64,000 bases of DNA, from the NCBI GenBank assembly GCA_013202295.1, contig JABMRT010000088.1, positions 1,357-65,356 on the forward strand, read 5' to 3'. The DNA comes from Candidatus Zhuqueibacterota bacterium. GTDB lineage: Bacteria; Zhuqueibacterota; QNDG01; JABMRT01. This document shows positions 1 through 56,327 of this stretch, one piece after another. A program made the position numbers and the translations under genes. The notes under the pieces were generated by a model. The model searched no databases. It worked only from the letters and a program-made list of their open reading frames with translations, and was not told where the DNA came from. How positions within the stretch are numbered: the first letter of the stretch is position 1; every line of letters starts with the position of its first letter.

Positions 1-796
1 ATTTACCCATTTCCACATTCGGGTCGCTTATTTTATATTCAGAAGCTTCAGATGTATTGCCACGCCCTTCAAGCTCGGGATGAGTCAGATATGACGCGAT
101 CTCTACCCAATCTGAAAGCAAATTTCCTTCGCCATCCATGTCGCAGCGTTCGAGCGCGAAACCCAGATTATCAACCTCGCTTTGCGTGGTCCAGGCCAGA
201 ACCACGGCATCGGATTCCACAGCCGCAGTGAAACCGGTGAGCGCGACAGACAACGATACTTGTGATCCAGCTTGTATGAACCGCCCTGGAACATCTTCCC
301 AGGCCCAGTCATGAAGAATTATATCATTGGGATATGGAGGTGTATATACAGTCACACCAACCCATCCATAATGGACACCCAGGCTACTATTAAATTCAAC
401 ACCGATATATTTCTTTCCTATTCCTGCAAACAGGGGACTTAATGGTATGTAACTTTGCCAGAAATTCTCATCATCTCCGATAACTTCAAGCGAGTTAAAA
501 GGTTTCACACCCAGACTGGTATAAGCATTGCCAAGATTAAAGCTCCATGAACCTCGAACACGGGCATAATATGTACTAAGGTTGGTAATATACTCCCATC
601 CGGAACTAGCAGGTCCAAAATCGAAATAAACGAAATACCCGGGATATAAATGGAGATCGAAAATGCCAGAGTATTGCACTTCCGCATGCGTTTCACCACC
701 GGCCAGTATAACCCCTGCTGCAAGTGAATAACCGATCAGCTTTTTGTCTAAAATATTTAACTTTTGGTGAGTTGGATTCATATTATCTTTTTGCAT
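1..796 (-). CDS. Partial (runs off left edge) secreted protein with the Ig-like pre-CTD domain typical of T9SS-type cargo; not in ORF track
   Basis: Manual translation: AAGGAGG RBS, ATG at 796, open to window edge: MQKDNMN...LIGYSLAAGVILAGGETHAEV...KYIGVEF...HYGWVGV...LSVALTGFTAAVESDAVVLAWTTQSEVDNLGFALER, matching the 'LPVELxSFTA..V.L.WxTxSE.xN.GF.xER' domain. Confidence 0.8.
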   Translation of the reverse strand, partial: MQKDNMNPTHQKLNILDKKLIGYSLAAGVILAGGETHAEVQYSGIFDLHLYPGYFVYFDFGPASSGWEYITNLSTYYARVRGSWSFNLGNAYTSLGVKPFNSLEVIGDDENFWQSYIPLSPLFAGIGKKYIGVEFNSSLGVHYGWVGVTVYTPPYPNDIILHDWAWEDVPGRFIQAGSQVSLSVALTGFTAAVESDAVVLAWTTQSEVDNLGFALERCDMDGEGNLLSDWVEIASYLTHPELEGRGNTSEASEYKISDPNVEMGK

Positions 797-1127
797 CGGG
801 CAACCTCCTTATCAATATGAATAGCCATTCTGCAACGAACAATCTGACATTCGGAGCAGTTTTAAATTAAACGAATATTGAACCCTAAGGACGGATAGTG
901 CTGTTATTTTCTAAATTGTTTACAGTCTAATAAAACGAGCCGTTTTATGCAAGGATATTCTGGTGGTATTATGCATAAACATCCACCTGAATCCTCTATC
1001 ACAGGCACATTACCATAGGCACTTCCTACGGTCGCCTACAATTTAAACCTCTTTTTTATTTGTCCGTTTTAAAAATTCTATTATATTGATGAACGATAAC
1101 TGAATCCGAATTAACTTGGAAGCCCAA

Positions 1128-2612
1128 ATGTTTCAGGACACTTGGTACATTGCCATCCCCTTCATCGGCTACATCCTCTTCATGCTCGGCATAGGAGTGT
1201 ATCAGTACCGACGCACAAAGAATATCGACGATTACATTCTCGGCAGCCGCGGGCTCGGTCGCTGGGTGGCATCGCTGAGTGCGCAGGCCTCGGATATGAG
1301 CGGCTGGCTCCTGCTCGGGCTGCCAGGCTATGCCTACCTCGCCGGTCTTGAAGCCGGATGGATCGCCCTCGGACTCTTGATTGGAACCTATCTGAATTGG
1401 CGATTCGTGGCATACCGCCTTCGGCTTTTTACAGAAATCGCGGGAAACGCCATTACACTGCCTGACTATTTCGAGAATCGCTTCGCGGTTCGATCCAGGC
1501 GGCTGCGCGTGATTGCTGCGCTATTTATCCTGATTTTCTTCCTCATCTATACCGCCTCCGGATTCGTGGCAGGCGCCAAACTCTTCAGCACAGTCTTTGG
1601 TCTGCCCTACATTCTCGCGCTCGGTATAGGGATATTCGTAATCATCAGCTATACCTTTTTAGGTGGATTTTTAGCCGTGTGCTGGACCGATTTTTTTCAG
1701 GGCATCATCATGTTTCTGGCCATTCTCATTGTGCCGATACTTGCCTTGCGAGAGGGGGGCGGGATGGTCTGGTCTCAACTCCGGGACTTTAATCCACACA
1801 CTTTGAATCCGTTTACGAATGCGTCTGGTGATTCACTTGGATTTTTTGGCATCCTCTCCCTCATGGCCTGGGGATTGGGCTATTTCGGCCAGCCGCATAT
1901 CCTCGCGCGCTTTATGGCAATCAAACGCCCCGATCATATCCCGTATGCCCGCCGGATTGCCATGATCTGGGTCATGCTGAGTCTAACCGCAGCACTCTTC
2001 GTTGGTTTGACAGCACATGGTGTTTTGTTGGAGAACTTGGATGCCAGTACTTCTGAAACCGTATTCATGGTTCTGGTGGGGCAATTGGTCACACCGCTTC
2101 TGGCCGGATTTCTTTTAGCGGCCGTACTCGCCGCGATCATGAGTACAGCGGATTCCCAACTGTTGGTTGCATCTTCGGCAATAGCGGAGGATCTGTACGG
2201 GAAATTGTTTCGGAAACAGGCAAGTCAATCCGAACTGGTATGGATCAGCCGCTTCGCAGTAATCGGGATTGCGATCATCGCGGGTGGAATTGCTCTGAAT
2301 CCCGAATCGAGCGTGCTTTCGCTCGTGGCCTATGCCTGGGCCGGATTCGGTGCAACATTCGGCCCGCTCATTCTGTTCTCATTATTCTGGAAACGCATGA
2401 CAGAAAAGGGTGCCTTCTTCGGCATCATTGGCGGAGGGTTGACTGTACTCATCTGGAAACAACTATCCGGCGGCCTGTTTGATCTGTATGAAATCGTTCC
2501 CGGATTTCTCATCTCATGTATCCTCATTATCATTTGTAGTCTTGCGGACAAGCCTCCCGCGCAATCCGTGCACAGCCAATTCGATCGCATGCATGACGCA
2601 CTTCATCCTTAA
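1128..2612 (+). CDS. putP: Sodium/proline symporter (SSS family)
   Basis: ALSAQASDMSGWLLLGLPG, WGLGYFGQPHILARFMA, AAIMSTADSQLL, AYAWAGFGA motifs and many TM helices; start ATG 1128 (track uses TTG 1116). Confidence 0.95.
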   Translation: MFQDTWYIAIPFIGYILFMLGIGVYQYRRTKNIDDYILGSRGLGRWVASLSAQASDMSGWLLLGLPGYAYLAGLEAGWIALGLLIGTYLNWRFVAYRLRLFTEIAGNAITLPDYFENRFAVRSRRLRVIAALFILIFFLIYTASGFVAGAKLFSTVFGLPYILALGIGIFVIISYTFLGGFLAVCWTDFFQGIIMFLAILIVPILALREGGGMVWSQLRDFNPHTLNPFTNASGDSLGFFGILSLMAWGLGYFGQPHILARFMAIKRPDHIPYARRIAMIWVMLSLTAALFVGLTAHGVLLENLDASTSETVFMVLVGQLVTPLLAGFLLAAVLAAIMSTADSQLLVASSAIAEDLYGKLFRKQASQSELVWISRFAVIGIAIIAGGIALNPESSVLSLVAYAWAGFGATFGPLILFSLFWKRMTEKGAFFGIIGGGLTVLIWKQLSGGLFDLYEIVPGFLISCILIIICSLADKPPAQSVHSQFDRMHDALHP

Positions 2613-46247: not shown

Positions 46248-46633
46248 CTGTTTTTGAGTTGAGTGTTTATATAGTGCGATCTCTATTTGGGCACGAAGCT
46301 CCTTAATATCATTCAGAGGTTTAGAAATATATCCATAAGGTTGTACTGTTTTTATTTCATTTAATGTTTTTTCATCCCCATAAGCAGTTATAAAAATAAC
46401 AGGTATCTTATATTTAGCAGCAATCTTCTCTGTTGTCTTGATCCATCCAATTTTCCAGATAGCATTATATCCATAAGTATTAAGTCGGGTTGAGAATTCT
46501 CAAGATATTTTAATGTGGCTTCTCCAGATGAAATTGTATCCATGATATGGTATCCAACGGTTTCAAGTTTCTGCTGAATATCCAGTGCGATGACCACATC
46601 ATCTTCAACGATTAATATTTTGGATGTTTCCAT
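46248..46633 (-). pseudogene. N-terminal receiver domain of the multi-PAS gene, split by a 1-nt deletion near 46443
   Basis: METSKILIVEDD...LILMDIMLSGKLDG continues in another frame as IKTTEKIAAKYKIPVIFITAY...YGYISKP...IEIALYKH, in frame with and open to ATG 46247. Confidence 0.85.
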
Positions 46634-47029: not shown

Positions 47030-47377
47030 TTAACAACTGATGGACTTTTCAGGTAGAAAAGTCTGTCTCACATGATCCCAACCAGGAAATGGCGGAAAAT
47101 TACGGTCATCAATATAGACGTTGGCCATAATTTTGGAATACCCGGGTTTATGACGTCGGACCACATTCTTGTTAATCGCATCAGGCCGAAATCCTCGATT
47201 CTCAAACCATTCTATAATTGGGGCCAGCCTAGGTGCAACCCTGCATGTGTAGATGATGATTTTATGACCTTTGTTTTGTAAATCCTTAAGTGTATTTACT
47301 GCACCTGGGATCTCTGGCCCGATCTCAGGATACTCATGTTCGACGATAGTCCCGTCGAAATCGATTGCGAAAATCAT
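47030..47377 (-). CDS. Small capless HAD-superfamily phosphatase, paralogue of 3717-4109
   Basis: FAIDFDGTIVEH, GHKIIIYTCR, SKIMANVYIDDR. Confidence 0.88.
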   Translation of the reverse strand: MIFAIDFDGTIVEHEYPEIGPEIPGAVNTLKDLQNKGHKIIIYTCRVAPRLAPIIEWFENRGFRPDAINKNVVRRHKPGYSKIMANVYIDDRNFPPFPGWDHVRQTFLPEKSISC

Positions 47378-47732: not shown

Positions 47733-47858
47733 TTCTAACGGCTTGACTAACTGGTTTTAAAACTAAACGAATACTTGCTTTGAAAAAACAATTCCACAAA
47801 GAGTAAAATTAAAAAAACAAACATGCTTTTTAAAATCCAGTTCAGCCAATTGATATGT
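47733..47858 (-). mobile_element. attC site (distal; R'' mutated to ACATATC)
   Basis: Minus strand ACATATC-aattggctgaactggattttaaaa...ttttaaaaccagttagtcaagcc-GTTAGAA; 126 bp, clearly homologous to 52426-52550. Confidence 0.8.
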
Positions 47859-47873
47859 GCTATATTACTTGAT

Positions 47874-48917
47874 TTAAATATCTTCATCGATATTAAATGT
47901 TGGGTATTCTCTTATTACTTTTATTGCATCATCGTATGACATTTCTCCTTTTTCGACCCCATCATAATAGTAATTCCAAATAATATATTTAAGATGAAGA
48001 GAATCTCTGCCAAACTTAAAAATATCTTCCATTGTCAGATAACCGTCTTCATGAATTGGTTCATCAACGCCATTTCTTATGTCATTTTTATGATGCTTAT
48101 ACGAACAATCTTGAACCGAGCAAAATAGTGTCAGTTTATCTTTATATTCATCATACATTGGGTAAGTCACTTTTCTCATCCAACGTCGATATGGAAGAAT
48201 ATCTGGACCACCCATAAAAATTCCGTAATAAATTATCGTATCTGCTATTTGTCGTAAATACTCATTACCATCACCCAGGAAATTTGAATACCAAAAAACA
48301 TTACTATTTGGGATGCCATTATGAAGGCCAATTAAAATTTTAATCAGTGCATCTCTGTATTTCTCGTCTGTATATTTATGTATTTCGAATCCCTCTTTAG
48401 TAACATTTAGTGAAGATTCCTGAATTGCGATACCTTCAAAGTTTGGGTGTGTATCAAATTGCTCTCCAATTGCTTTTCCTAAAGCAACAAATCGCTCAAC
48501 AACATACGGATCCCAACGAATAGGACAGTATCCTGCCTCCTTAGAATAATATTCATAATCAGATAAATATTCTGGCATAGCTCCTTTTTCTCCAAAAGAA
48601 ACATCGATAAGAAAAACAACAAGTTGCTTGTCACGTGCACTTAAGAAATCTAAGTCTTTCTCAATTTGTGAAAAATCATATACATTCTTTTCAGGCTCTA
48701 AATGTCTCCAAAGATATCTTTTATTTACTCCCTGAACTGATGGTTCATTCAAGTATTTGATGTCTTTCATTTGTTCATACGGACTAAGGGCAACATAATG
48801 GCCTGGGTTATACTTTTTTTCTAATTTTCTATTTGTACAACTAAATAAATGAATTAATAATGCTGAAAATACTATTACTCGAAATGTTGTCAAAATTTTT
48901 GTTTTATTATTTCTCAA
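47874..48917 (-). CDS. Cassette-borne lipoprotein with glycoside-hydrolase-like TIM barrel (clan GH-A-like)
   Basis: LFSC lipobox; W..LEPEKNVYDFS.I, RWDPYV.ERF, IQESS motifs. Confidence 0.6.
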   Translation of the reverse strand: MRNNKTKILTTFRVIVFSALLIHLFSCTNRKLEKKYNPGHYVALSPYEQMKDIKYLNEPSVQGVNKRYLWRHLEPEKNVYDFSQIEKDLDFLSARDKQLVVFLIDVSFGEKGAMPEYLSDYEYYSKEAGYCPIRWDPYVVERFVALGKAIGEQFDTHPNFEGIAIQESSLNVTKEGFEIHKYTDEKYRDALIKILIGLHNGIPNSNVFWYSNFLGDGNEYLRQIADTIIYYGIFMGGPDILPYRRWMRKVTYPMYDEYKDKLTLFCSVQDCSYKHHKNDIRNGVDEPIHEDGYLTMEDIFKFGRDSLHLKYIIWNYYYDGVEKGEMSYDDAIKVIREYPTFNIDEDI

Positions 48918-48956
48918 AATTCAATTCTCCATTTAGAAATGGTGTGTTACTGTTAC

Positions 48957-49087
48957 GCTTAACGATGGTTATAAGGGGACGAAAACCCTACGGCGATGTG
49001 TTTCGCGTCGCCAGCACCTGAGCCCGAATTAAAACCTGAACATGCAACCGGAACGCGTTTGCGTTCCGTTGCATGCCCGGGTTATAC
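48957..49087 (-). mobile_element. Divergent/composite attC-like site
   Basis: Minus strand starts GTATAAC 10 bp after the CocE stop and ends GTTAAGC; contains the hairpin CATGCAAC-GGAACGC-aaac-GCGTTCC-g-GTTGCATG. Confidence 0.65.
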
Positions 49088-49096
49088 GCGATTTTT

Positions 49097-50950
49097 TTAG
49101 TTACTTATAACTGGTAAAGTGATTTTCGAAGCCAATTGGCTATTTCGGTAAATTGTTATTTCAGGGACAGGTTTTTCCTCTAGTATCTCATCCCATTTTT
49201 CATTTGCGCAACTAATACTGACGCGAATTCGATGCCCTTTGTTAAATATGTTAGAGAGCGGCATTAAATCGAATTTAAGTTCAACAGGTTGGTCTTCTGG
49301 AATTGGCATTATATCTTCCTCAAAATGACGATGATACGGTAAATCCATATTATCAAAAGGTGGTTTTGCTTCCTTTCGATGTGAAGCCCGTAAACAACCA
49401 TCTGTGATTAAATAAGATTTGCCATCATTATCAATTTCTTCCAGATAAACATAAAAATTACCGTCACCAAAACTTGAAGATACAAAAAGTGTAACAACAG
49501 GACTTCCGATAACGGTCACGTCTGTATCCAGAAGAGGTGTTGTATAAGTTAAACTCTTTAGGTCGTTTGGGGTCATATCCGGAGCGTTGAGATTTTGAAT
49601 CGGCGCCCGAGGAAGGTGGATTTTACCAATACTGGTGCTGTAATCTACTTTGTAAATATCCTTGCATATTTTATCTGCTGAAATCTTTACTGACAAACCA
49701 CCATCATTAACAGATGAAACACTCTCTGATTGTCCTCCCGAAAAATAGTAGTCTGCCTGGTCAATTTTTGGGAGCGGCCACCTATTCGTGCTGTGCCAGG
49801 TATATTCACCCGGATTATTTATAACAGCGTATAAAATTGCAGGCTCCTCCATAATCCCATTAACGATGTCCTTTAGCCAATAGTCGAACCAACGCAATTG
49901 TTCAATGGTGTATAATTTATAACGCTCAGTACGTACAGTGGAGTCTAAATCGGAATGAGCCCAGGGTCCTATAACAAGTTTCTGTGGATTTTTCAGATTT
50001 CTGAAATATTGAAACACATCACGGGGAAAGCCATCAAACCAGCCAGCCCAATGATAGACAGCAATGGAAGATGAGCTTATTCGCTTGATATGGGACATCG
50101 GGTTGTCCAATGTCCAGGGTTTTGTTATTTCACCCTCGCTATCATGAAAAGGGAAATTAGCCATAAGTATTGGATCTACATTTTCTCGATGTTGTTCTCT
50201 TGCAGCAGCTGTGTAAACACCATCTACATCCTCATCCACGTGAATAAACGGCGCCTCAAAATCCTGCCATTTAAAATTTTTGCTGACCATTTCAAGAATA
50301 ATTTTACGAAGAATTCCACCTGGATAAATGAGCTGATATAGATCAAAGGCCCCCATTGAAGGAAAAATAGCTTTCAAATGCGGCGGGGAAAGAGAAGCAG
50401 TCATTAATTGGATATGTGCGCTGTATGAATGTCCGAACATACCCACATTGCTATCACACCATGATTGACTTGCCAGCCATTCAATAATATCGTAACCATC
50501 CTTTGCCTCCTCCATGGAAACCGGACCTGTTACTTGTCCGAATGAGGCGCCTCTTCCCCTACTATCTACAATAGCGATAATGTAACCGTGACGCACGAGC
50601 GTTTGCAAAGATGTGCTTCGGTCCACCATTGAGATCACTTTCCCATTTTCCATTCTTGCCCGCAAATACGAATAATAATTCAAGAGTGCTGGTAGTGGAT
50701 TTTCTTCTACTTTTCCATCTATTGTGGGGCGGATGATATCGATAGCAATTTTGACACTATCGCGCATGGTGACGTATTTTGATGTACGTTCCCAACCATT
50801 ATATTTTTCTTCCGAGTAGCCTTCGTATTTTCCAAATTCAGATATGGCGCCCGGTTTCGGGGATTTTGTTTTTTCAAAAGAAATCACACCGAATAGAAGA
50901 AGAACCAATATATATAGAAAAATCTTTTGCCATTGCTTAGACGTAATCAT
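49097..50950 (-). CDS. CocE/NonD-family hydrolase (peptidase S15-like)
   Basis: VTMRDSVKIA.D, DSRGRGASFG, DGYDIIEWLA.Q.WCDSNVGMFGHSY, GWFD, IGPWAH; jelly-roll C-terminus. Confidence 0.92.
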   Translation of the reverse strand: MITSKQWQKIFLYILVLLLFGVISFEKTKSPKPGAISEFGKYEGYSEEKYNGWERTSKYVTMRDSVKIAIDIIRPTIDGKVEENPLPALLNYYSYLRARMENGKVISMVDRSTSLQTLVRHGYIIAIVDSRGRGASFGQVTGPVSMEEAKDGYDIIEWLASQSWCDSNVGMFGHSYSAHIQLMTASLSPPHLKAIFPSMGAFDLYQLIYPGGILRKIILEMVSKNFKWQDFEAPFIHVDEDVDGVYTAAAREQHRENVDPILMANFPFHDSEGEITKPWTLDNPMSHIKRISSSSIAVYHWAGWFDGFPRDVFQYFRNLKNPQKLVIGPWAHSDLDSTVRTERYKLYTIEQLRWFDYWLKDIVNGIMEEPAILYAVINNPGEYTWHSTNRWPLPKIDQADYYFSGGQSESVSSVNDGGLSVKISADKICKDIYKVDYSTSIGKIHLPRAPIQNLNAPDMTPNDLKSLTYTTPLLDTDVTVIGSPVVTLFVSSSFGDGNFYVYLEEIDNDGKSYLITDGCLRASHRKEAKPPFDNMDLPYHRHFEEDIMPIPEDQPVELKFDLMPLSNIFNKGHRIRVSISCANEKWDEILEEKPVPEITIYRNSQLASKITLPVISN

Positions 50951-50964
50951 AAGCGCCTCCTGAT

Positions 50965-52389
50965 TTAGTGACCTTCAATCAACTTAACACGATCCAATAA
51001 CCTGCCATCTTTGATGACAGATTCTATTGTTCTGGTATTACGAATATCATCGAGTGGATTTGCGTTTAAAATGATTAGATCGGCTCGTTTTCCTTCCTCT
51101 ATCGTCCCAAACAAGTTTTCAGCGCTAAGCATTTCTGCACCTTTTCGTGTAGCTGCGACAAGTATTTCCATTGGAGATAAGCCCGCCTTTGCCAGAAGTT
51201 CCATCTCCAAATGTGAACTGTATCCTGGAAAGTTAAAAATAAATCCTGCATCAGTTCCTAATACTATTTTCACACCTGAGCGATGTGCTTCCCCGATACC
51301 TCTAATAATATTTTCCACACGAGGACGAACCCAGGCTGCTGTGCGCTGTTTATGTGCATTAAGGAATAATGGATTGTTTAAGCTTTCTATTGTATGTCTT
51401 GAAACGCCGTCTCTTAGAAATGGATCAGCAAAAAGTGTTGGATCATCGATATAACGGTAGAACCCGCAATAAAGAGCGAGAGTCGGAATATAGTAAATGT
51501 CGTTTTCTTTCATAGTTTGAATTAGTGATTCATCGAGAATTGGTTTATCCATAACGCCATGAGCTATTGCTCCGACACCTGCCTTGACAGCATCTTGCAT
51601 TTCGTCTAATGACGATATATGGGCATATACAGGTAATTTAAATTTATTGGCTTCATCGAGGATGTATTGAATTAATTCTGGAGACATTCGCGGATGGTTG
51701 TTACCCCAAGGTGGGGGACCAGATTCAATGATGATCTTTACACCATCCATGCCTAAGGCTGCATTGTTGGCAATAGCCTCACGGACTTGCCTATTATTTC
51801 TGATGATTGTGTAGCCCCTTGATTCCCAATCAATCGTTTCAAGGTCTGTACCTGGTGGTAATGACGCTGCAACAGTTGTGGCAATCGGATGGCCACCGGG
51901 TACAGTCAACATATTGCCTGTTCCATAGATACAAGGTGCAAAAACAAAACCCTCACGCTGTCGTTTATGAAGTTCAGCGATTTCGCTGGTGCTGCCGCCA
52001 TCAGCGCCTAAGTTCAATACTGTAGTTACACCATAATATAAAAATTGTCTGAATACACGCTCATTGGTGTGTGAAGCATGAGGCTCAAGACCTCCGCTAC
52101 TGAAGTGTACATGAACATCAACCAGTCCGGGCATCACATATTTACCAGTGGCATTAATGAGGATTGTACTTCCCGGAACATGTTTGATATCTTTCGATGA
52201 TATGTGAGATATAATGCCGTCTTTGATAAATATATTTACGTTTGAAACCGGTACATTTCCAGTCCCGTCAATAAGTGTCGCATTAGAAATAATAAGATCC
52301 ACGTCCTGTATATTTGGGGAAGAACATGCCGAAAACATGAGAATGGACAGGATGAATAGTATTGCAATACGGTTTTTTATAAGTTTCAT
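50965..52389 (-). CDS. Amidohydrolase-family lipoprotein (imidazolonepropionase-like)
   Basis: FSAC lipobox; MPGLVDVHVH, GVKI, YAH, AHG, LGTDAG, GTIEEGKRADL. Confidence 0.9.
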   Translation of the reverse strand: MKLIKNRIAILFILSILMFSACSSPNIQDVDLIISNATLIDGTGNVPVSNVNIFIKDGIISHISSKDIKHVPGSTILINATGKYVMPGLVDVHVHFSSGGLEPHASHTNERVFRQFLYYGVTTVLNLGADGGSTSEIAELHKRQREGFVFAPCIYGTGNMLTVPGGHPIATTVAASLPPGTDLETIDWESRGYTIIRNNRQVREAIANNAALGMDGVKIIIESGPPPWGNNHPRMSPELIQYILDEANKFKLPVYAHISSLDEMQDAVKAGVGAIAHGVMDKPILDESLIQTMKENDIYYIPTLALYCGFYRYIDDPTLFADPFLRDGVSRHTIESLNNPLFLNAHKQRTAAWVRPRVENIIRGIGEAHRSGVKIVLGTDAGFIFNFPGYSSHLEMELLAKAGLSPMEILVAATRKGAEMLSAENLFGTIEEGKRADLIILNANPLDDIRNTRTIESVIKDGRLLDRVKLIEGH

Positions 52390-52425
52390 ATTTGTTCCCT
52401 CCCCTTCTAAAGATATTTGTTTGCG

Positions 52426-52550
52426 GCCTAACGTCGTGGCTAACTGGTTTTAAAACTAAACGAACACATAAGTTGAAAAAGTAATTCCATAAAATTTAAA
52501 ACTGAAAAATAAAGGTACGTTTTAAAATCCAGTTGAGCCAGTTGTTATGT
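52426..52550 (-). mobile_element. attC site (proximal, intact)
   Basis: R'' ACATAAC, R' GTTAGGC; arms GGCT-AACTGG-TTTTAAAA and TTTTAAAA[T]CCAGTT[G]AGCC pair with extrahelical T and G on the bottom (+) strand; 125 bp. Confidence 0.88.
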
Positions 52551-53532
52551 TTTGTTTTTTATGGTTTATAGTTATAACAACATTTCCCTTTTTATGACCT
52601 TTATCAACATACCGGTGTGCTTCTGCGGTCTCTTCTAAGGGATAGCATCTATCAATGACCGGTTTGATTTTTCCCTCTTCTACAAGTTCTCTGAGCAAAT
52701 GTAAATCTTCGATCTTATTCGCTATACCATAGATGATTTTCTTTTTACTTGTCAGGGATATCCAAAGGGCCTCAAGAATCGGCCAATCCACCGTAATAAA
52801 GGCCCCTTTCTCTGTCAGAGAATTTTTACATTGGGAATATGAGGTTTTCATGACCGCATCAAAAATGATGTCATACCGTTCTCCGCTATTGGTAAAATTC
52901 TCCTTTGTGTAATCAATCACTTTGTCAGCACCAATAGATTTTACCAATTCTATATTATCTGTACTGCAAACACCGGTTACCTCCGCTCCAAAATATTTGG
53001 CCAGCTGGACTACAAAAGTACCGACACTCCCGGATGCTCCATTGATCAACACGCTCTGTCCTTTTTGGATTTTCCCTTTTCTTAACAACACCAAGGCGGT
53101 TAATCCCCCGATGGGAACAGCAGCAGCTTCTTCATAGGAACTGTTTATCGGTTTTAGTGCGACCCTGTTTTTCGGCATACATTTGTATTCAGCATTGCCG
53201 CCGCCATTGCTCACTTCCCAGACTATAGCATACACCTGATCGCCCGGTTTAAATTCTGATACATTATTTCCTATGGCCTCAATCTCACCGGCCAGTTCAT
53301 TTCCCGGCGTCGGTTTTCTCGGCCTTCGAAAACCGAACCAAATTTTCCCTGGGAGCAGGAACCAGCGGGCCCAGGTAAAGCTTCGCATTCGTACATCTCC
53401 TGCGGCTACCGTACTTGCATATACCTTAATTAACACTTCATTATCCCCGGGTGTCGGTTTTAGTACATCTTTAAGCTGAAGCACTTCGGGTGGACCGTAT
53501 TGAGTACAGACTATTGCTTTCATTTGTGTCAC
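52522..53532 (-). CDS. NAD(P)-dependent MDR-family oxidoreductase (Zn-independent, quinone-reductase-like), first cassette
   Basis: MKAIV..YGPPEVL, INGASGSVG, GAEVTGVCS, IKPVIDR.YPLE, GHKKGNVVI; ORF runs into the attC. Confidence 0.92.
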   Translation of the reverse strand: MTQMKAIVCTQYGPPEVLQLKDVLKPTPGDNEVLIKVYASTVAAGDVRMRSFTWARWFLLPGKIWFGFRRPRKPTPGNELAGEIEAIGNNVSEFKPGDQVYAIVWEVSNGGGNAEYKCMPKNRVALKPINSSYEEAAAVPIGGLTALVLLRKGKIQKGQSVLINGASGSVGTFVVQLAKYFGAEVTGVCSTDNIELVKSIGADKVIDYTKENFTNSGERYDIIFDAVMKTSYSQCKNSLTEKGAFITVDWPILEALWISLTSKKKIIYGIANKIEDLHLLRELVEEGKIKPVIDRCYPLEETAEAHRYVDKGHKKGNVVITINHKKQNITTGSTGF

Positions 53533-53562
53533 TCCGAGATGATTTTAAGCATAATATTTAAA

Positions 53563-53581
53563 ACATAACATAGTATTAACG
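53563..53581 (-). mobile_element. attI-like recombination site
   Basis: Minus strand CGTTAAT-ACTAT-GTTATGT (L box, 5-bp spacer, R box, as in attI1 CCCTAAA-ACAAA-GTTRRRY); GTTATGTTTT is the exact complement of AAAACATAAC at the first cassette's attC. Confidence 0.7.
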
Positions 53582-53585
53582 ACCC

Positions 53586-53683
53586 TATATGCATATTTTA
53601 AATGCATATAAATATAGAAACCATGTATCTATATATAGAGACTTGTATCTATTTATAGATACCTATATGCATTGTATATGCAT
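53586..53683. repeat. Array of ~9 related 9-mers (TATATGCAT / TATAGATAC-like) in mixed orientation
   Basis: TATATGCAT 53586, ATGCATATA 53602, TATAGAAAC 53613, GTATCTATA 53625, TATAGAGAC 53634, GTATCTATT 53645, TATAGATAC 53654, TATATGCAT 53664 and 53675. Confidence 0.85.
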
Positions 53684-54031
53684 CTATAACGGACCGCGCT
53701 TCACAATGCGGTCTTCTAAATCAAGTTCAAAAACAGTCGGAAGAGGGAGCTCCCAGACTTTTTGAATCGGATTCCATTTTCTACCGGCCATTTTAACATT
53801 TTGCCGTAATTCGGTCTCCTGAATGTGAATTTGAAGCCCCACTTTCTTGTCATGAACAATACCCTGATAGCATTCCAGCTTCCAGTACTGTTCATCAACA
53901 ATAATCTCCGCAGTCTTCAAGCGTCTCTTTGATATCGGATCATAACGGTACCGGACACACACGAGTTCGGCGCCGTGTGCCTGCATTTCCGATTTGGTGC
54001 CGCGTTGTCCTGGCTTCAATACCAGACGCAT
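53684..54031 (-). CDS. Small basic hypothetical protein; C-terminal half DUF5710/HARP-like
   Basis: LKPGQRGTK...LVCVRYRYD...RRLKTAEIIVDE N-half; E.ELRQ.VK.AG.KWNP..KVWEL C-half. Confidence 0.75.
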   Translation of the reverse strand: MRLVLKPGQRGTKSEMQAHGAELVCVRYRYDPISKRRLKTAEIIVDEQYWKLECYQGIVHDKKVGLQIHIQETELRQNVKMAGRKWNPIQKVWELPLPTVFELDLEDRIVKRGPL

Positions 54032-54307
54032 AGCAGCGTTTCCGTGGGTTTCTCATTTATACAGATTCATACACCTGTCTCTCCTGATCGTTCAAGGGTA
54101 AGAGTCAGGGTGCCTGTGCAGATGGTGACGATGTAGCGCTCTATTAAAATAAGTTGAATGTAATTTACAAAGCCTGATTGAAAATGCAAGTGGTTTTTAC
54201 TGAGATTGCCCCGGGGCGTGAAACAAGAAGGTTTGGCCCTTTTCAAATCGGCATTATTTATCAAGTTAATGCGAGCGAAGTTAGAAGACCATCATCCTTC
54301 TACAATT

Positions 54308-54341
54308 AAAAAATCCCGGAAACCTCTCGATCTCCGGGATT
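54308..54341 (-). terminator. Intrinsic terminator of pepF
   Basis: Minus strand AATCCCGGAGA...TTTCCGGGATTTTTT. Confidence 0.75.
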
Positions 54342-54358
54342 GAAATTTACAGTATTTA

Positions 54359-54418
54359 CTCGTTCCAATGCTCCGCGTTGGAACGTCATCCCATTCCCAC
54401 GCAGAGCGTGGGAACGAG
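54359..54418. repeat. REP/REPIN-like palindromic doublet
   Basis: CTCGTTCCAATGCTCCGCGTTGGAACG and the inverted copy CATTCCCACGCAGAGCGTGGGAACGAG, each itself a hairpin. Confidence 0.8.
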
Positions 54419-54434
54419 ATGTTTGAAAGGAATA

Positions 54435-56327
54435 TTAAATCCCCTTCTTATCCAAAATCTTCTCAATCTCATCCATAGTACGATTCATCGCCTGCATCGT
54501 CTTGTCAAACGGCTCAGAACCCGTCATGTCCACACCGGCATCCTTTAAAATATCGATTGGATATTTGGAGCCGCCTGAAGACAAGAAAGTCATCACATGA
54601 TCCACCGCACCCTTTTCATGGGCCAACACCTTCTCGGCCAGAGCGGTGGATGCGGTAAAGCTGGTGGCATACTGATATACATAAAAATTATAGTAGAAAT
54701 GAGGAATGAACGCCCACTCAACCGTCACATGATCTTCGATAAGCGTCACACCCTGTTCATGACCATAATACCGTTTCAGAATATCGGCATACAATTCAGT
54801 CAAATTGTCCCCTGTCAGAGGTTGATCCTTTTCCGCAAGTTCATGCATCCGCAGTTCAAACTCAGCGAACTGTGTCTGGCGGAACAGGGTGCCCTTGATC
54901 CCGTCGAGATATTCCATAAGAAGAGATAGCCGGACGTCATCATCCTTGATCTTCTTCATCATATAATCCTGCAGCAGTGCTTCGTTTAATGTAGACGCCA
55001 CCTCTGCCACGAAAATAGAATAATCTGAGAGCGGATAAGGTTGATTCTTGTTGGACAAATAACTGTGCATCGTGTGTCCCAATTCATGCGCAAGCGTGCT
55101 CACATCATTATACTGTCCGTTATAATTTAGCAGGATGTAGGGATGCTCATCGTAGGCGCTGCCGTTGGAATAAGCGCCGGAACGTTTGCCTGGAGTGGGA
55201 TACACATCGACCCAGCGATTTTCAAGGCCATTTTTCACAGTCTGGATATATTTCTTGCCAAGTGGTTTAAACGCCTGAAGTACCATTTCTTTGGCTTCAT
55301 TATAATCGTATTTCAGATCCACATTTTTCACGGTGGGCGCGTAAAGATCGGAGTATTTCAGGGTATCGACGCCCAACATGCGTTTCTTGATCTTGAGATA
55401 GCGATGAAACGAATCCAGGTTGTCGTTCACGTTTTTTATGAGGGAGTGATAGACTTCTACCGGGATATTGTTCTGATCCAGTTTCGAGTGCAGCGAAGAG
55501 TCATAGCCTCGGACCCGCGCATAAAAAATATCACCCTTAATATTTGAATACATGGATGCGCCCAGCGTCTGCCGGAACTGATTCATGGTGCCCCAGAACT
55601 CTTTGAAAACCAATTCACGATCATCGCGATTGGGTGAAGTGCGGTGCAATCCATACCCGGATTGATTCAGCGTCACTTTTGAACCATCGGACAATTCGAC
55701 TTCGGGATAGGGCAATTCCGCGTTCGCGAAAATATTATAAATACTGGATGGGCCGCCTGCCATGGCACCGGCCTCGGCAATGATTTTCTCTTCTTCCGCG
55801 GATAGCTTATGCGCTTTCCGGCGGAGAATATCATTGAGGTAGAATCGATGCACTTCCAGACCTGGTTCCTTCTGGATGAACTTGTCAATCGTCTCTTTAT
55901 CCAGGTTCACAAGTTCAGGTTCAATAAAGGACGCCTTGCTGTTATAATTGGTGCCGAGTTGTTGCAGTTCCTGCTTCATGGACATATTGTCCGCATTGCG
56001 AGTGTCCAAATCGGATTTCATACCCGCATAGGAGTAGAGCTTGCTGAACTCTTTGCCAAGATTGCTGTCAAATTCAAGACAGGCCAGCAAATCATTCGGG
56101 GAGGTTGCCAGTTTGCCCTGATACTCGAGAATTTGTTCCATGGACGCAACCAATTCATCTTTGGATGCACGCCATGCCGCATCGTCTGGATAAAGATCTT
56201 CGAGCTGCCACGTATCCGATTGGGGTACATCGGCTCGTTCGCGAGCCTGAGCTTGACTATCATTGACACTCATCAGCAGCCCTGTGCATAGAGTCAATGT
56301 CAAAATTATACCTGTGATTCTGGTCAT
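54435..56327 (-). CDS. pepF: Oligoendopeptidase F (M3B) with signal peptide
   Basis: TWQLEDLY, GKRSGAYS, HPYILLNY, TLAHELGHTMHS, FVAEVAST, RQTQFAEFE, IPHFYYNFYVYQYAT. Confidence 0.95.
   Translation of the reverse strand: MTRITGIILTLTLCTGLLMSVNDSQAQARERADVPQSDTWQLEDLYPDDAAWRASKDELVASMEQILEYQGKLATSPNDLLACLEFDSNLGKEFSKLYSYAGMKSDLDTRNADNMSMKQELQQLGTNYNSKASFIEPELVNLDKETIDKFIQKEPGLEVHRFYLNDILRRKAHKLSAEEEKIIAEAGAMAGGPSSIYNIFANAELPYPEVELSDGSKVTLNQSGYGLHRTSPNRDDRELVFKEFWGTMNQFRQTLGASMYSNIKGDIFYARVRGYDSSLHSKLDQNNIPVEVYHSLIKNVNDNLDSFHRYLKIKKRMLGVDTLKYSDLYAPTVKNVDLKYDYNEAKEMVLQAFKPLGKKYIQTVKNGLENRWVDVYPTPGKRSGAYSNGSAYDEHPYILLNYNGQYNDVSTLAHELGHTMHSYLSNKNQPYPLSDYSIFVAEVASTLNEALLQDYMMKKIKDDDVRLSLLMEYLDGIKGTLFRQTQFAEFELRMHELAEKDQPLTGDNLTELYADILKRYYGHEQGVTLIEDHVTVEWAFIPHFYYNFYVYQYATSFTASTALAEKVLAHEKGAVDHVMTFLSSGGSKYPIDILKDAGVDMTGSEPFDKTMQAMNRTMDEIEKILDKKGI

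What the first reader, a model, noticed from the sequence alone, without database searches (positions are those of the whole stretch)
47733..54085. Integrase-less integron platform headed by a small DUF5710/HARP-like gene
Seen: an attI-like site (53563-53581) opens three co-oriented cassettes separated by attC-like sites. The first cassette's entry sequence GTTATGTTTT is exactly complementary to its own attC R'' (AAAACATAAC), as expected after site-specific insertion of a circular cassette. Where a divergent intI would normally lie, there is a co-oriented 115-aa basic gene followed by a repeat array, and beyond it only pepF and other housekeeping genes. No tyrosine recombinase was recognised anywhere in the window. 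Known: IntI recombines attI with folded single-stranded attC, and CALINs usually lack a recognisable platform. Inference: 'small gene + 9-mer array + attI' may be a conserved minimal cassette-capture platform served in trans by a distant integrase. The small protein could act as an accessory DNA-binding or annealing factor, since its C-half resembles DUF5710/HARP-like ss/dsDNA-junction binders.
Basis: partly seen in the sequence, partly recalled or inferred. Interest (0 to 1): 0.85.

Follow-up and report, generated by a model that had tools for sequence, protein, structure and literature searches.

The report
Integrase-less integron platform, conserved partner gene
This is a bacterial gene-capture site (an integron) that has no recombinase gene of its own but keeps a small unnamed protein gene and a dense array of DNA repeats beside the capture site, and the same three parts sit together in many environmental bacteria, which suggests an overlooked part of the integron machinery.

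Summary
On the minus strand the order is: 115-aa basic gene (53684-54031), a 98-nt repeat array, an attI simple site (53563-53583), one canonical cassette (ADH plus a 125-nt attC), then a 4.7-kb three-gene segment ending in a degenerate attC. The proposed middle attC (48930-49090) is not attC-like.

No integrase lies on this contig. The genome has an intact integron integrase on contig C8. That gene is followed by a 43%-identical copy of the small gene and an attI core identical to the window's over 20 nt.

The small protein belongs to a large unnamed family: 3068 clusters, no Pfam or NCBIfam name, no PDB fold match. In 80 loci from many phyla it is followed by repeats, an attI-like core and attC sites. 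28 of 80 have intI next door, 3 have intI fragments and 49 have none.

In the window's phylum the gene co-occurs with intI (odds ratio 6.2) and is mostly truncated where intI is absent. TCTA-N-TAGA palindromes accompany the small gene, not intI.

Best reading: a platform-encoded protein binds the array and assists or controls IntI at attI, here with IntI supplied in trans. Binding and function are inferred. Seven literature searches found no description.

The parts
54312..54341 (-). Intrinsic terminator of the upstream housekeeping gene pepF (54435-56327). It marks the left limit of the locus.
   Evidence: 13-bp stem followed by a T run. pepF carries Peptidase_M3 at E 5e-73.
53684..54031 (-). 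115-aa basic protein (pI 9.5), a member of a large unnamed family found on integron platforms. The model has two small beta-alpha-beta-beta halves.
   Evidence: No Pfam, NCBIfam or PHROG name. 96 relatives and 3068 clusters. AF2 pLDDT 87 with no PDB fold match. 43% identical to the copy that follows intI on C8. dN/dS 0.055 against L009.
53586..53683 (-). Repeat array between the small gene and attI. It holds four ATGCATATA 9-mers (53586-53594, 53602-53610, 53664-53672, 53675-53683), two 18-bp palindromes GT(A/C)TCTATA(A/T)ATAGATAC (53625-53642, 53645-53662) and a third degenerate unit, at 20-21-bp spacing.
   Evidence: (I25). The 117 nt from the stop codon to the crossover are 84% identical to L009, while synonymous sites of the gene are near saturation (pS 0.72). 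The array feature is general across the family.
53563..53583 (-). attI simple site. L box TCGTTAAT (about 53576-53583), R box GTTATGT (53563-53569). The inferred crossover lies between G (53569) and TT (53568-53567).
   Evidence: 20-nt identity to the attI of the complete integron on C8. Homology to L009 ends at 53563. The site fits the cross-validated consensus.
52432..53568 (-). Cassette 1: zinc-type alcohol dehydrogenase / quinone oxidoreductase gene (52522-53532) plus its attC.
   Evidence: ADH_zinc_N_2 and ADH_N domains. The cassette start is complementary to its own R'' over 10 of 10 nt.
52426..52550 (-). Canonical attC of cassette 1. R'' ACATAAC, R' GTTAGGC, unpaired spacer, L stem with two bulges (T and G on the bottom strand).
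   Evidence: Detector score 16, the only hit of 10 or more on contig C68. Fold. Family alignment with 10 of 19 covarying pairs.
47859..52425 (-). Second attC-bounded segment with three genes: amidohydrolase (50965-52389), S15/CocE-type peptidase (49097-50950) and a 347-aa weakly GH42-like protein (47874-48917). It is either one large cassette or two cassettes whose internal boundary is lost.
   Evidence: Pfam. The 48930-49090 spacer holds a strong hairpin but is not attC-like and is unique in the genome.
47733..47858 (-). Terminal, degenerate attC. R' is GTTAGAA (47733-47739). R'' reads ACATATC, so the AAC core is lost.
   Evidence: 80% identical to the good attC over 82 nt (D1). R-box pair broken in alignment A6. 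The detector finds it only in a shifted register at score 8.

Best explanation
The locus is an integron platform without its own integrase. On the minus strand, after the pepF terminator, come a 115-aa basic protein gene, a 98-nt array of about nine G(C/T)AT(A/C)TA-type half-sites (three of them paired into 18-20-bp palindromes about two helical turns apart), an attI simple site, one canonical cassette, and a second segment closed by a degenerate attC.

The small gene, the array and attI form a module that is conserved in environmental integrons of many phyla. It occurs in four layouts: intI>small>array>attI, <intI small>array>attI, small>intI>array>attI, and small>array>attI with no intI.

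Most likely mechanism (inferred):
- The small protein binds the palindromic array as a dimer or oligomer and builds a nucleoprotein structure beside the attI simple site.
- That structure assists or gates IntI-mediated attI x attC capture. It would play the part that the DR1/DR2 sites play in attI1, or that arm sites and small accessory proteins play for other tyrosine recombinases.
- In this window the IntI would come in trans from the intact integron on contig C8, whose attI core is identical.

Shown: the anatomy, the conservation, the linkage to intI, attI and attC, purifying selection on gene and array, and the co-occurrence of the palindromes with the small gene. Inferred: DNA binding, the effect on recombination, and trans action.
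For: Same genome:
- C8 carries an intact intI (451 bits against a cut-off of 265). Three bp later comes a 117-aa homologue of the small gene (43% identity, E 1e-27), then about 100 nt of AT-rich repeats, then GGTCGTTAATACTATGTTAT, identical to the window's site. The two sequences diverge right after GTTAT.

Family context (80 loci):
- intI is adjacent in 28, present as fragments in 3, and absent in 49.
- The attI-like core exceeds the 99th background percentile in 18 of 38 held-out loci, where 0.38 would be expected.
- attC-like sites: 39 in 211 kb downstream, 2 in 390 kb upstream, 0 in shuffles.
- Many contigs end 110-300 nt after the gene.

Repeats:
- An exact 7-mer or its complement occurs 3 or more times in 130 nt in 37 of 74 zones against 4.3% of 4362 background windows.
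- Two or more perfect palindromes occur in 43 of 76 zones against 10% of background windows.
- TCTA-N-TAGA palindromes occur in 37 of 76 zones against 1.7% of 2838 background windows. They occur in 0 of 11 integron loci of the same phylum that lack the small gene (22 flanks). In 3 of 3 small>intI>attI loci they sit after intI, beside attI.

Selection:
- Window against L009 (both integrase-less, in different chromosomal neighbourhoods): dN/dS is 0.055 with pS 0.72, yet the non-coding array is 84% identical. Homology stops at the crossover.

Coupling to IntI:
- In the window's phylum (167 genomes): both genes in 46, small gene only in 14, intI only in 37, neither in 70. Odds ratio 6.2.
- The best small-gene match is full length in 40 of 46 genomes with intI but in 5 of 14 without.
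- 26 of 45 genomes whose small-gene locus lacks intI have an integron integrase above cut-off elsewhere, against 0 of 14 control genomes.

Cassette pool:
- 34 attC-like sites on 24 contigs of this genome are mostly 120-133 nt and form one covarying family that includes the window's attC.
Against: - No experiment or prediction here shows DNA binding. No known DNA-binding fold or domain was recognised.
- 39 of 76 zones have no TCTA-type palindrome by my regex. The C8 copy itself scores 0, although it has other direct repeats.
- Full-length small genes persist in near-complete genomes with no intI found: G196 (99% complete), G211 (100%) and G067 (94%, holding L009 and L010), and the 9.5-Mb chromosome holding L077. 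The function therefore may not need IntI.
- Several integrase-less or integrase-poor copies elsewhere are plainly decayed integrons: L098 and L023 have fragments, L076 has a stop, L039 is split, and P0099 is an intI-small deletion fusion.
- This window has only one canonical cassette and a dead terminal attC.
- attC-like sites were found downstream in only 11 of 27 integrase-less loci with at least 1 kb downstream, against 11 of 14 intI-adjacent loci.
- Kin are not independent, so the Fisher P values overstate significance.
- The small-less comparison set is small (n=11) and comes from one phylum.
- My attC detector and attI matrix are home-made, not IntegronFinder.
Confidence: 0.5

Rival explanations
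1. The small protein is a platform-encoded transcription factor rather than a recombination cofactor. It binds the palindromes as operators or a roadblock just upstream of the insertion point. It thereby sets expression of the first cassettes, and possibly read-through from intI and its own gene. This would be the 'alternative transcription factor' proposed for soil and freshwater integrons that lack LexA control.
For: - 16-20-bp palindromes in 2-6 copies are typical operators.
- They always lie just upstream of the cassette entry point.
- Intact small genes persist in some genomes with no intI found.
- Cambray 2011 (PMC3108266, passages read) states that an alternative regulator for such integrons 'needs to be carefully explored'.
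- A weak sigma-70-like match overlaps the window attI at 53579-53551. The scan found 17 such sites where shuffles gave 21.5, so this counts for little.
Against: - In divergent layouts the palindromes lie at least 400 nt from the intI promoter region, so they cannot be a simple intI operator.
- The small gene is mostly fragmentary where intI is absent: 9 of 14 genomes, against 6 of 46 where intI is present. That ties its usefulness to IntI rather than to cassette expression alone.
- No promoter was demonstrated.
Confidence: 0.28
2. The locus is a relic. An integron lost its integrase by deletion or rearrangement, and the small gene, attI and cassettes are leftovers with no present activity.
For: - Decayed intI sits next to the small gene in other loci (L098, L023, L076, L078, L039, P0099).
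- The terminal attC is degenerate.
- There is only one canonical cassette.
- Laying contigs of three runs showed no alternative junction at this attI. These are contigs at low depth, so this is weak evidence.
Against: - dN/dS is 0.055, and the array is 84% identical between two integrase-less copies that sit in different neighbourhoods (pepF here, pyrR-pyrB-pyrC in L009).
- No intI remnant is detectable upstream.
- The attI core is identical to that of the intact C8 integron.
- attC-like sites follow 11 of 27 integrase-less platforms that have at least 1 kb downstream.
Confidence: 0.12
3. The palindromes are extra IntI binding sites, like DR1/DR2 of attI1. The small protein does something else, for example handling folded single-stranded attC DNA or annealing.
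For: - The attI L box (GTCTAAT) resembles the TCTA half-site in some loci, such as L021 and L062.
- 10 of 30 family members weakly touch DUF5710.
- The two small-less integrons I read (L103, L107) carry direct repeats of an L-box-like motif.
Against: - TCTA palindromes were found in 0 of 11 integron loci that have intI but no small gene. They were found in 37 of 76 loci with the small gene, whether or not intI is adjacent.
- The repeat sequence varies between lineages while the simple site stays conserved.
Confidence: 0.1

Closest known systems
Classical integron platform (intI, attI, Pc; for example class 1 with attI1 and its DR1/DR2 accessory sites)
   Same: An attI simple site of two inverted 7-bp boxes with a G|TT crossover. 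The cassette start is complementary to its own R''. The attCs are folded, with an unpaired spacer and extrahelical bases. Accessory repeats lie beside the simple site.
   Different: There is no intI within the 66-kb contig. An extra conserved protein gene belongs to the platform. The accessory repeats are mostly 16-20-bp palindromes that track this gene, not intI. Richard 2022 (PMC8946536, passages read) lists DR1/DR2 and host factors for attI reactions. Wu 2013 (PMC3607928, passages read) gives the platform as intI, attI and a cassette promoter. In the passages I read, neither names any other platform-encoded protein.
CALIN (cluster of attC sites lacking an integron integrase; Cury 2016, PMC4889954; search listing and abstract seen, definition recalled)
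   Same: attC sites and cassettes with no integrase nearby, in a genome that has integron integrases elsewhere.
   Different: The array still begins with a recognisable attI and a conserved platform gene, so it has a defined head. This head recurs in 49 of 80 loci without intI.
Treponema-type integrons, with intI transcribed toward attI (Wu 2013, PMC3607928, passages read)
   Same: In C8 and in most copies in the window's phylum, intI points toward attI and the cassettes.
   Different: Here a small gene sits between intI and attI, or before intI. I did not test whether Treponema integrons carry it.
Arm-site / accessory-protein systems of other tyrosine recombinases (lambda Int arm sites, Xis-type directionality factors; recalled knowledge)
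   Same: A small basic protein is encoded beside the recombinase gene, and clustered repeats lie next to the core site.
   Different: No sequence or fold relation was found. Only 2 of 30 members give a weak Arm-DNA-bind_5 hit at E 0.0068. Integron recombination uses a folded single strand and has no known directionality factor; two literature searches turned up none.
Pfam DUF5710 (PF18974)
   Same: The C-terminal motif AGGKWNxxxKVWELP resembles it. 10 of 30 relatives hit it weakly. The Atlas lists a DUF5710 cluster at rank 29 with score 0.78.
   Different: The window protein has no hit at E<=10. The N-terminal half (VRYRYD hairpin) is not covered. DUF5710 itself has no known function.

Membership tests
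Complete integron | Integron integrase (IntI, TIGR02249) adjacent to the array | tested here: not met
   No match on contig C68 at E<=0.001. No remnant in 54032-54434. Intact intI genes lie on C8, and an interrupted one on C241.
Complete integron | attI site at the head of the array | tested here: met
   20-nt identity with the attI of the C8 integron. Homology with L009 ends at the crossover. The site fits the cross-validated consensus. Recombination activity was not tested.
Complete integron | Cassette promoter Pc | tested here: inconclusive
   One weak sigma-70-like match at 53579-53551. The total number of matches does not exceed shuffles, and the organism's promoter type is unknown.
CALIN | Two or more attC sites with no integrase nearby (definition recalled from Cury 2016) | tested here: met
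   attC at 52426-52550 (score 16) and a degenerate attC at 47733-47858. No integrase on the contig. The second site has lost its AAC core.
attC recombination site | R''/R' boxes, unpaired central spacer, L stem with extrahelical bases, structure kept by compensatory change | tested here: met
   Fold of 52420-52552. On 21 genome copies RNAalifold recovers the R box, spacer and bulged L stem, with 10 of 19 pairs changed on both sides. Covariation is 0.42 against 0.118 in shuffles (0 of 500) and 0.125 or less when slid. Caveat: the copies were chosen by a detector that requires stem complementarity.
attC recombination site (proposed middle site, 48930-49090) | Same features as above | tested here: not met
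   The minimum-energy fold pairs other segments. No detector hit at threshold 8. No relative in the genome.
Pfam DUF5710 | Match to PF18974 at or above the curated threshold | tested here: not met
   The window and C8 proteins give 0 families at E<=10. 10 of 30 relatives hit weakly, best E 0.001.
HARP-like DNA-junction binder | HARP fold or sequence signature | tested here: inconclusive
   Foldseek against PDB gave best E 0.9. VIA wide search gave best Z 3.4 with no HARP entry listed. Small domains score low, so absence is weak evidence.
Excisionase / recombination directionality factor | Membership of a known Xis/RDF family; effect on directionality | tested here: inconclusive
   No Pfam, NCBIfam or PHROG family matched. 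Function is not testable with these tools.

The most novel reading that the evidence does not exclude
Many environmental integrons have a third, so far unnamed, platform component. It is a roughly 115-aa protein that binds a palindrome array next to attI and acts as a detachable 'arm-binding' subunit for IntI.

Because the protein and its sites travel with attI rather than with intI, one integrase could serve several satellite attI platforms scattered round a genome. Integrase-less arrays such as this one would then be working capture sites rather than dead CALINs.
Probability: 0.3. Interest if true: 0.9.

Novelty: new variant of a known kind. Interest (0 to 1): 0.8.

Why it matters
The integron platform is described as intI, attI and a cassette promoter (Wu 2013, PMC3607928, passage read). 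The only well-established regulator is the host's LexA (Richard 2022).

Two open questions in that literature become directly testable with this family:
- What replaces LexA control in soil and freshwater integrons? (Cambray 2011.)
- Which unknown factors do some attI x attC reactions need? (Richard 2022.)

If the protein acts at attI, four things would follow:
- It would be a new integron component.
- It would give a practical marker for finding attI sites in environmental genomes, where attI is otherwise hard to call.
- It would change how integrase-less cassette arrays are read.
- It could explain why chromosomal integrons work poorly outside their hosts.

Cultured carriers exist for bench work. 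Geomonas anaerohicana Red421 (L053) has intact intI, the small gene, four repeats, an attI-like core and an attC. Desulfonema magnum 4be13 (L039) has a split intI.

Tried and rejected
- Complex prediction on IntI (C8, alignment A4) with the small protein (alignment A5): 'no answer', score 0.00 in both runs, controls not folded. This is neither for nor against binding.
- Rfam at gathering thresholds on the window: 0 matches. No Rfam family matched either attC at gathering thresholds.
- An energy-threshold attC detector found nothing in this AT-rich DNA. I replaced it with a stem-alignment detector. That detector is specific (0 hits in shuffles) but not sensitive. It missed the attC-like end of the first L010 cassette, whose R'' GCGGTATAAC complements the cassette start.
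- A strict attI regex hit only 18 of 79 zones, about 0.75 expected. I replaced it with a two-block matrix and a held-out test.
- Fold searches: Foldseek against PDB gave no match at E<=0.001. The VIA wide search gave best Z 3.4. I did not fold the two halves separately.
- PDB sequence profile search: best E 0.51.
- Search for fused forms: 8 longer proteins. I read 6 of them: one intI-small deletion fusion, one IS110 junction, one N-terminal domain with a long unrelated tail, and three with unrelated extensions that look like over-long ORF calls. None is a functional fusion.
- RNA evidence: no RNA holder listed.
- Laying contigs of three runs confirmed the assembly. The loose ends at 52429, 52551 and 54163 fall in repeated attC or repeat elements and cannot be assigned to this locus. 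The 8125-nt 'joint' rests on 22-nt sides and was dismissed.
- The idea that the small gene is itself a cassette was rejected. It lies upstream of the crossover, no attC separates it from attI, and it holds a fixed place in 80 loci.
- Literature: seven searches (and the 'find' reads) found no paper describing a small protein gene as part of the integron platform. Elsaied 2011 (PMC3146285, passages read) reports 'first cassettes' with complete ORFs but no attC. Its table lists basic products of 234-396 bp. These might be this gene, but I could not see the sequences.
- I did not establish the organism's phylum name.

Full report
1. WHAT IS IN THE WINDOW

The window is contig C68:1357-65356 of a 5.15-Mb, 303-contig genome (95.65% complete). 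All genes of the finding lie on the minus strand. In order they are:
- pepF (54435-56327; Peptidase_M3), with a 13-bp-stem terminator at 54341-54312.
- About 280 nt holding two elements that are repeated elsewhere in the genome.
- A 115-aa gene (53684-54031).
- An AT-rich repeat array.
- The attI-like site.
- A zinc-type dehydrogenase gene (52522-53532).
- A 125-nt attC.
- An amidohydrolase (50965-52389) and an S15/CocE-type peptidase (49097-50950), only 14 nt apart.
- A 180-nt spacer.
- A 347-aa protein (47874-48917).
- A second attC-like element.

2. CHECKING THE RECOMBINATION SITES

The attC at 52426-52550 folds as expected. TAAC pairs with GTTA, an unpaired spacer follows, and then comes a long L stem. 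Two single-base bulges read T and G on the bottom strand.

An energy-threshold detector failed in this AT-rich DNA. I wrote a second detector that requires R''/R' boxes (3 of 4 degenerate positions) and scores the stem by alignment. It gives this site 16. It gave no hit in dinucleotide shuffles of about 600 kb of locus sequence.

Over the whole genome the detector finds 34 sites on 24 contigs. Most are 120-133 nt long, several form arrays, and many lie at contig ends. I aligned 21 of them, the two window sites included. On this alignment:
- RNAalifold recovers the R box, the unpaired spacer and the bulged L stem.
- 10 of 19 pairs show changes on both sides.
- 92% of cells pair, against 74% in shuffles.
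- The covariation score is 0.42, against 0.118 in shuffles (0 of 500 reach it) and 0.125 or less when the partner column is slid.
The detector selects for stems, so the pairing percentage is partly circular. The shared architecture, the fixed bulge positions and the uniform length are not.

The terminal site (47733-47858) is 80% identical to the good attC over 82 nt, but it reads TATC where TAAC should be.

It neither folds nor scores as an attC. I therefore count one canonical cassette, followed by a 4.7-kb three-gene segment closed by a degenerate attC.

The cassette begins G|TTATGTTTT and its own attC starts AAAACATAAC.

3. THE KEY RESULT FROM THE SAME GENOME

TIGR02249 finds two integron integrases above cut-off, neither on C68.

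On C8 a 331-aa intI (451 bits) is followed 3 bp later, on the same strand, by a 117-aa gene. That gene is 43% identical to the window's 115-aa gene (E 1e-27). After it come about 100 nt of AT-rich direct repeats, then GGTCGTTAATACTATGTTAT. This stretch is identical to the window's site, and similarity ends after GTTAT.

So 'small gene, repeats, attI' is the normal head of an integron in this organism. The window holds a second head without an integrase. These are the only two copies of the small gene in the genome. I found no trace of intI in the 400 nt upstream of the window's copy.

The second intI (C241) is interrupted by an 88-aa GIY-YIG gene.

4. THE PROTEIN

The protein is basic (pI 9.5; 28 of 30 aligned relatives have pI above 8). 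It has no Pfam family at E<=10, no NCBIfam family, and only noise in PHROGs.

- A word-indexed search gave 96 relatives, all unnamed or 'hypothetical'.
- A full profile search gave 3068 clusters (50% identity) at E<=0.001 and 1839 at E<=1e-10. Nearly all of the 150 listed are 100-160 aa.
- AlphaFold2 on a 30-row alignment gives pLDDT 87. The model has two small beta-alpha-beta-beta(-alpha) halves joined by a low-confidence linker.
- Invariant residues lie mainly in the N-terminal half (G11, G20, L23, V26-R-Y-R-Y-D31, T40, E42). The C half carries nearly invariant G83, W86 and W93 (motif AGGxWN...KVWELP).
- Neither Foldseek (best E 0.9) nor an all-against-all VIA search (best Z 3.4) finds a PDB fold.
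- 10 of 30 relatives touch DUF5710 weakly, and 2 of 30 touch Arm-DNA-bind_5. The protein Atlas lists only 'hypothetical protein' clusters at 0.92-0.94 and a DUF5710 cluster at 0.78.

The HARP or annealing idea is unsupported.

5. CONTEXT ACROSS BACTERIA

A scan of one genome per species found at least 584 relatives, and 80 loci were kept. They come from Acidobacteriota, Chloroflexota, Desulfobacterota, Gammaproteobacteria, Rokubacteria, Calditrichaceae and others.

I searched the 80 loci with the C8 IntI by tblastn and checked seven of the doubtful hits with NCBIfam.
- 9 loci have intI just upstream on the same strand, with a gap of 24-168 nt. One is cut by a contig end and one is a C-terminal 185-aa piece.
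- 19 have intI divergent, with a gap of 92-670 nt. One is split in two, and one scores just under cut-off as a fragment.
- 3 have only fragments or a stop-containing copy (L023, L076, L078).
- 49 have none in the up-to-6 kb held. One of these has only 114 nt upstream.

Downstream of the gene almost every locus shows repeats followed by a core like CCGTCTAAT-N-GTTAGGCG. The left box is an imperfect inverted copy of the right box, as in an attI simple site.
- A two-block matrix trained on 38 loci scores the 300 nt after the gene above the 99th percentile of 1801 background windows in 18 of 38 held-out loci.
- attC-like sites number 39 in 211 kb downstream, 2 in 390 kb upstream, and 0 in shuffles.
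- Among loci with at least 1 kb downstream, 11 of 14 intI-adjacent loci and 11 of 27 integrase-less loci have at least one attC-like site.
- Many contigs stop 110-300 nt after the gene. This is what variable cassette arrays do to assemblies.

A fourth layout, small>intI>repeats>attI, occurs in L089, L090 and L100. There the palindromes stay beside attI, not beside the small gene.

6. THE REPEATS GO WITH THE SMALL GENE

- Exact 7-mer recurrence (3 or more in 130 nt) occurs in 37 of 74 zones against 4.3% of 4362 background windows.
- Two or more perfect 6-nt-arm palindromes occur in 43 of 76 zones against 10% of background windows.
- The common form is xxTCTA-N2-8-TAGAxx, for example GTTTCTATATATAGAAAC or GCATCTACATATAGATGC. 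It is present in 37 of 76 zones against 1.7% of 2838 background windows.
- It is absent from both 400-nt flanks of intI in 11 of 11 integron loci of the window's phylum that lack the small gene.
- It is present (2-3 copies) after intI in 3 of 3 small>intI loci.
- The two small-less integrons that I read instead carry direct repeats of an L-box-like motif.

In the window the array holds four ATGCATATA 9-mers, two perfect-armed 18-bp palindromes and a third degenerate unit. They are spaced 20-21 nt apart, so they lie on one face of the helix.

7. SELECTION AND COUPLING TO IntI

The closest relative (L009, 81% amino-acid identity) is also integrase-less. It sits beside pyrR-pyrB-pyrC, not pepF, in a genome of another family of the same order. 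Homology with the window runs only from about 50 nt before the start codon to the attI crossover (54081..53563).

Between the two copies dN/dS is 0.055, with synonymous sites near saturation (pS 0.72). The 117 non-coding nt from stop codon to crossover are 84% identical. Both the gene and the array are therefore under strong constraint in integrase-less copies.

In the window's phylum (167 genomes):
- 60 genomes have the small gene and 83 have intI at E<=1e-40.
- Both are present in 46, the small gene only in 14, intI only in 37, and neither in 70. The odds ratio is 6.2 (kin are not independent).
- Several 'intI only' cases are contigs that end at intI. One holds a truncated small gene (L115).
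- The best small-gene match is full length in 40 of 46 genomes with intI but in only 5 of 14 without.

Of 45 genomes whose locus lacks intI, 26 have an integron integrase above cut-off elsewhere, and 31 have a match at E<=1e-30. The figure for control genomes is 0 of 14.

Against a strict dependence, full-length copies occur in near-complete genomes with no intI found: G196, G211, G067, and the 9.5-Mb chromosome holding L077.

8. HOW IT MOST LIKELY WORKS

Shown:
- The module and its conservation.
- Its fixed place at the head of cassette arrays.
- Its linkage with IntI.
- Constraint on the protein and on the non-coding array.
- The association of the palindromes with the protein gene rather than with intI.

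Inferred: the protein binds the palindromes as a dimer or oligomer and shapes the DNA beside the simple site, so helping or gating IntI at attI.

In the window, IntI would come from C8. The identical 20-nt core makes that plausible. The shared attC family on 24 contigs shows one cassette pool.

The main rival is a transcriptional role at the cassette entry point. The two roles are not exclusive. A relic reading fits some other loci better than this one.

A structure-prediction test of IntI-small protein contact gave no verdict. It counts neither way.

9. COMPARISON WITH WHAT IS KNOWN, AND NOVELTY

By function this is an integron head. By the usual definition the locus would be filed as a CALIN, because it has no integrase.

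It differs from both descriptions in two ways. It carries a recognisable attI, and it carries a conserved extra gene with its own site array.

Reviews and surveys that I could read in part describe the platform as intI, attI and Pc, acted on by host factors. They also pose the questions of an alternative regulator and of unknown attI x attC factors. Seven full-text searches found no description of this gene family as an integron component. Supplements and non-open papers were not visible.

I rate it a new variant of a known kind, with high interest. It is widespread (thousands of clusters), sharply defined and directly testable.

Noticed in passing
own genome, L002 (G000:C241:1-2666), 56-322 and 327-1286, minus strand: The genome's second integron integrase is cut short near its C-terminus. 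An 88-aa GIY-YIG-type gene follows directly, and the rest of intI matches at C241:1-57. This looks like an insertion of a small homing-endonuclease-like gene into intI.
   Followed up: partly
window 54354-54421: A 60-70-nt double-hairpin element (CTCGTTCCCACGC...GGAACGAG) sits right after the pepF stop. Copies occur on at least 7 other contigs, three each on C22 and C82. The C22 copies are about 1 kb apart. It is REP-like and not attC-like by eye.
   Followed up: partly
window 54152-54198: A roughly 45-nt element (…TTTCACGCCCCGGGGCAATCTCAGTAAAAACCACTTGC…) upstream of the small gene recurs on at least 10 contigs at 88-97% identity. Its nature is unknown. Loose ends of metagenome contigs at 54163 come from these copies.
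   Followed up: no
alignment A6 of 21 attC sites of the genome (columns ~66-78); window 52470-52485: Inside the supposedly variable loop of the attCs, a motif GTGGAAT(C/T)ACT is nearly invariant across cassettes. That is unusual for attC terminal structures and unexplained.
   Followed up: no
L089 4350-4590 (G195:C167): In the small>intI>attI layout, the IntI reading frame runs on for about 70 residues beyond the end of its match to the C8 IntI. I did not check whether other IntIs carry this tail.
   Followed up: no
P0099 (290 aa) and L098 3822-4292: Natural decay products. One is an in-frame deletion that fuses the N-terminal two thirds of IntI to the small protein. The other is a locus with two IntI fragments upstream of an intact small gene.
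   Followed up: partly
P0085-P0094, Chloroflexus: 69-71-aa proteins consisting only of the N-terminal half (VRYRYD hairpin) of the family. So the N domain can stand alone. Their genomic context was not examined.
   Followed up: no
window 47030-47377 and 46388-46633, minus strand: Just beyond the terminal attC lie a 115-aa HAD-like fragment-sized ORF and an 81-aa response-regulator-like ORF. The latter ends in a frame-shifted-looking tail, before the 1741-aa PAS-rich kinase. These may be gene remnants at the array's end.
   Followed up: no
L032 / L033, L067 / L071, L016 / L018: Pairs of loci from one genome share near-identical small gene, array and attI sequence up to the GTT crossover and then differ. 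Either the platforms are duplicated with different first cassettes, or strain variants were assembled as separate contigs.
   Followed up: no
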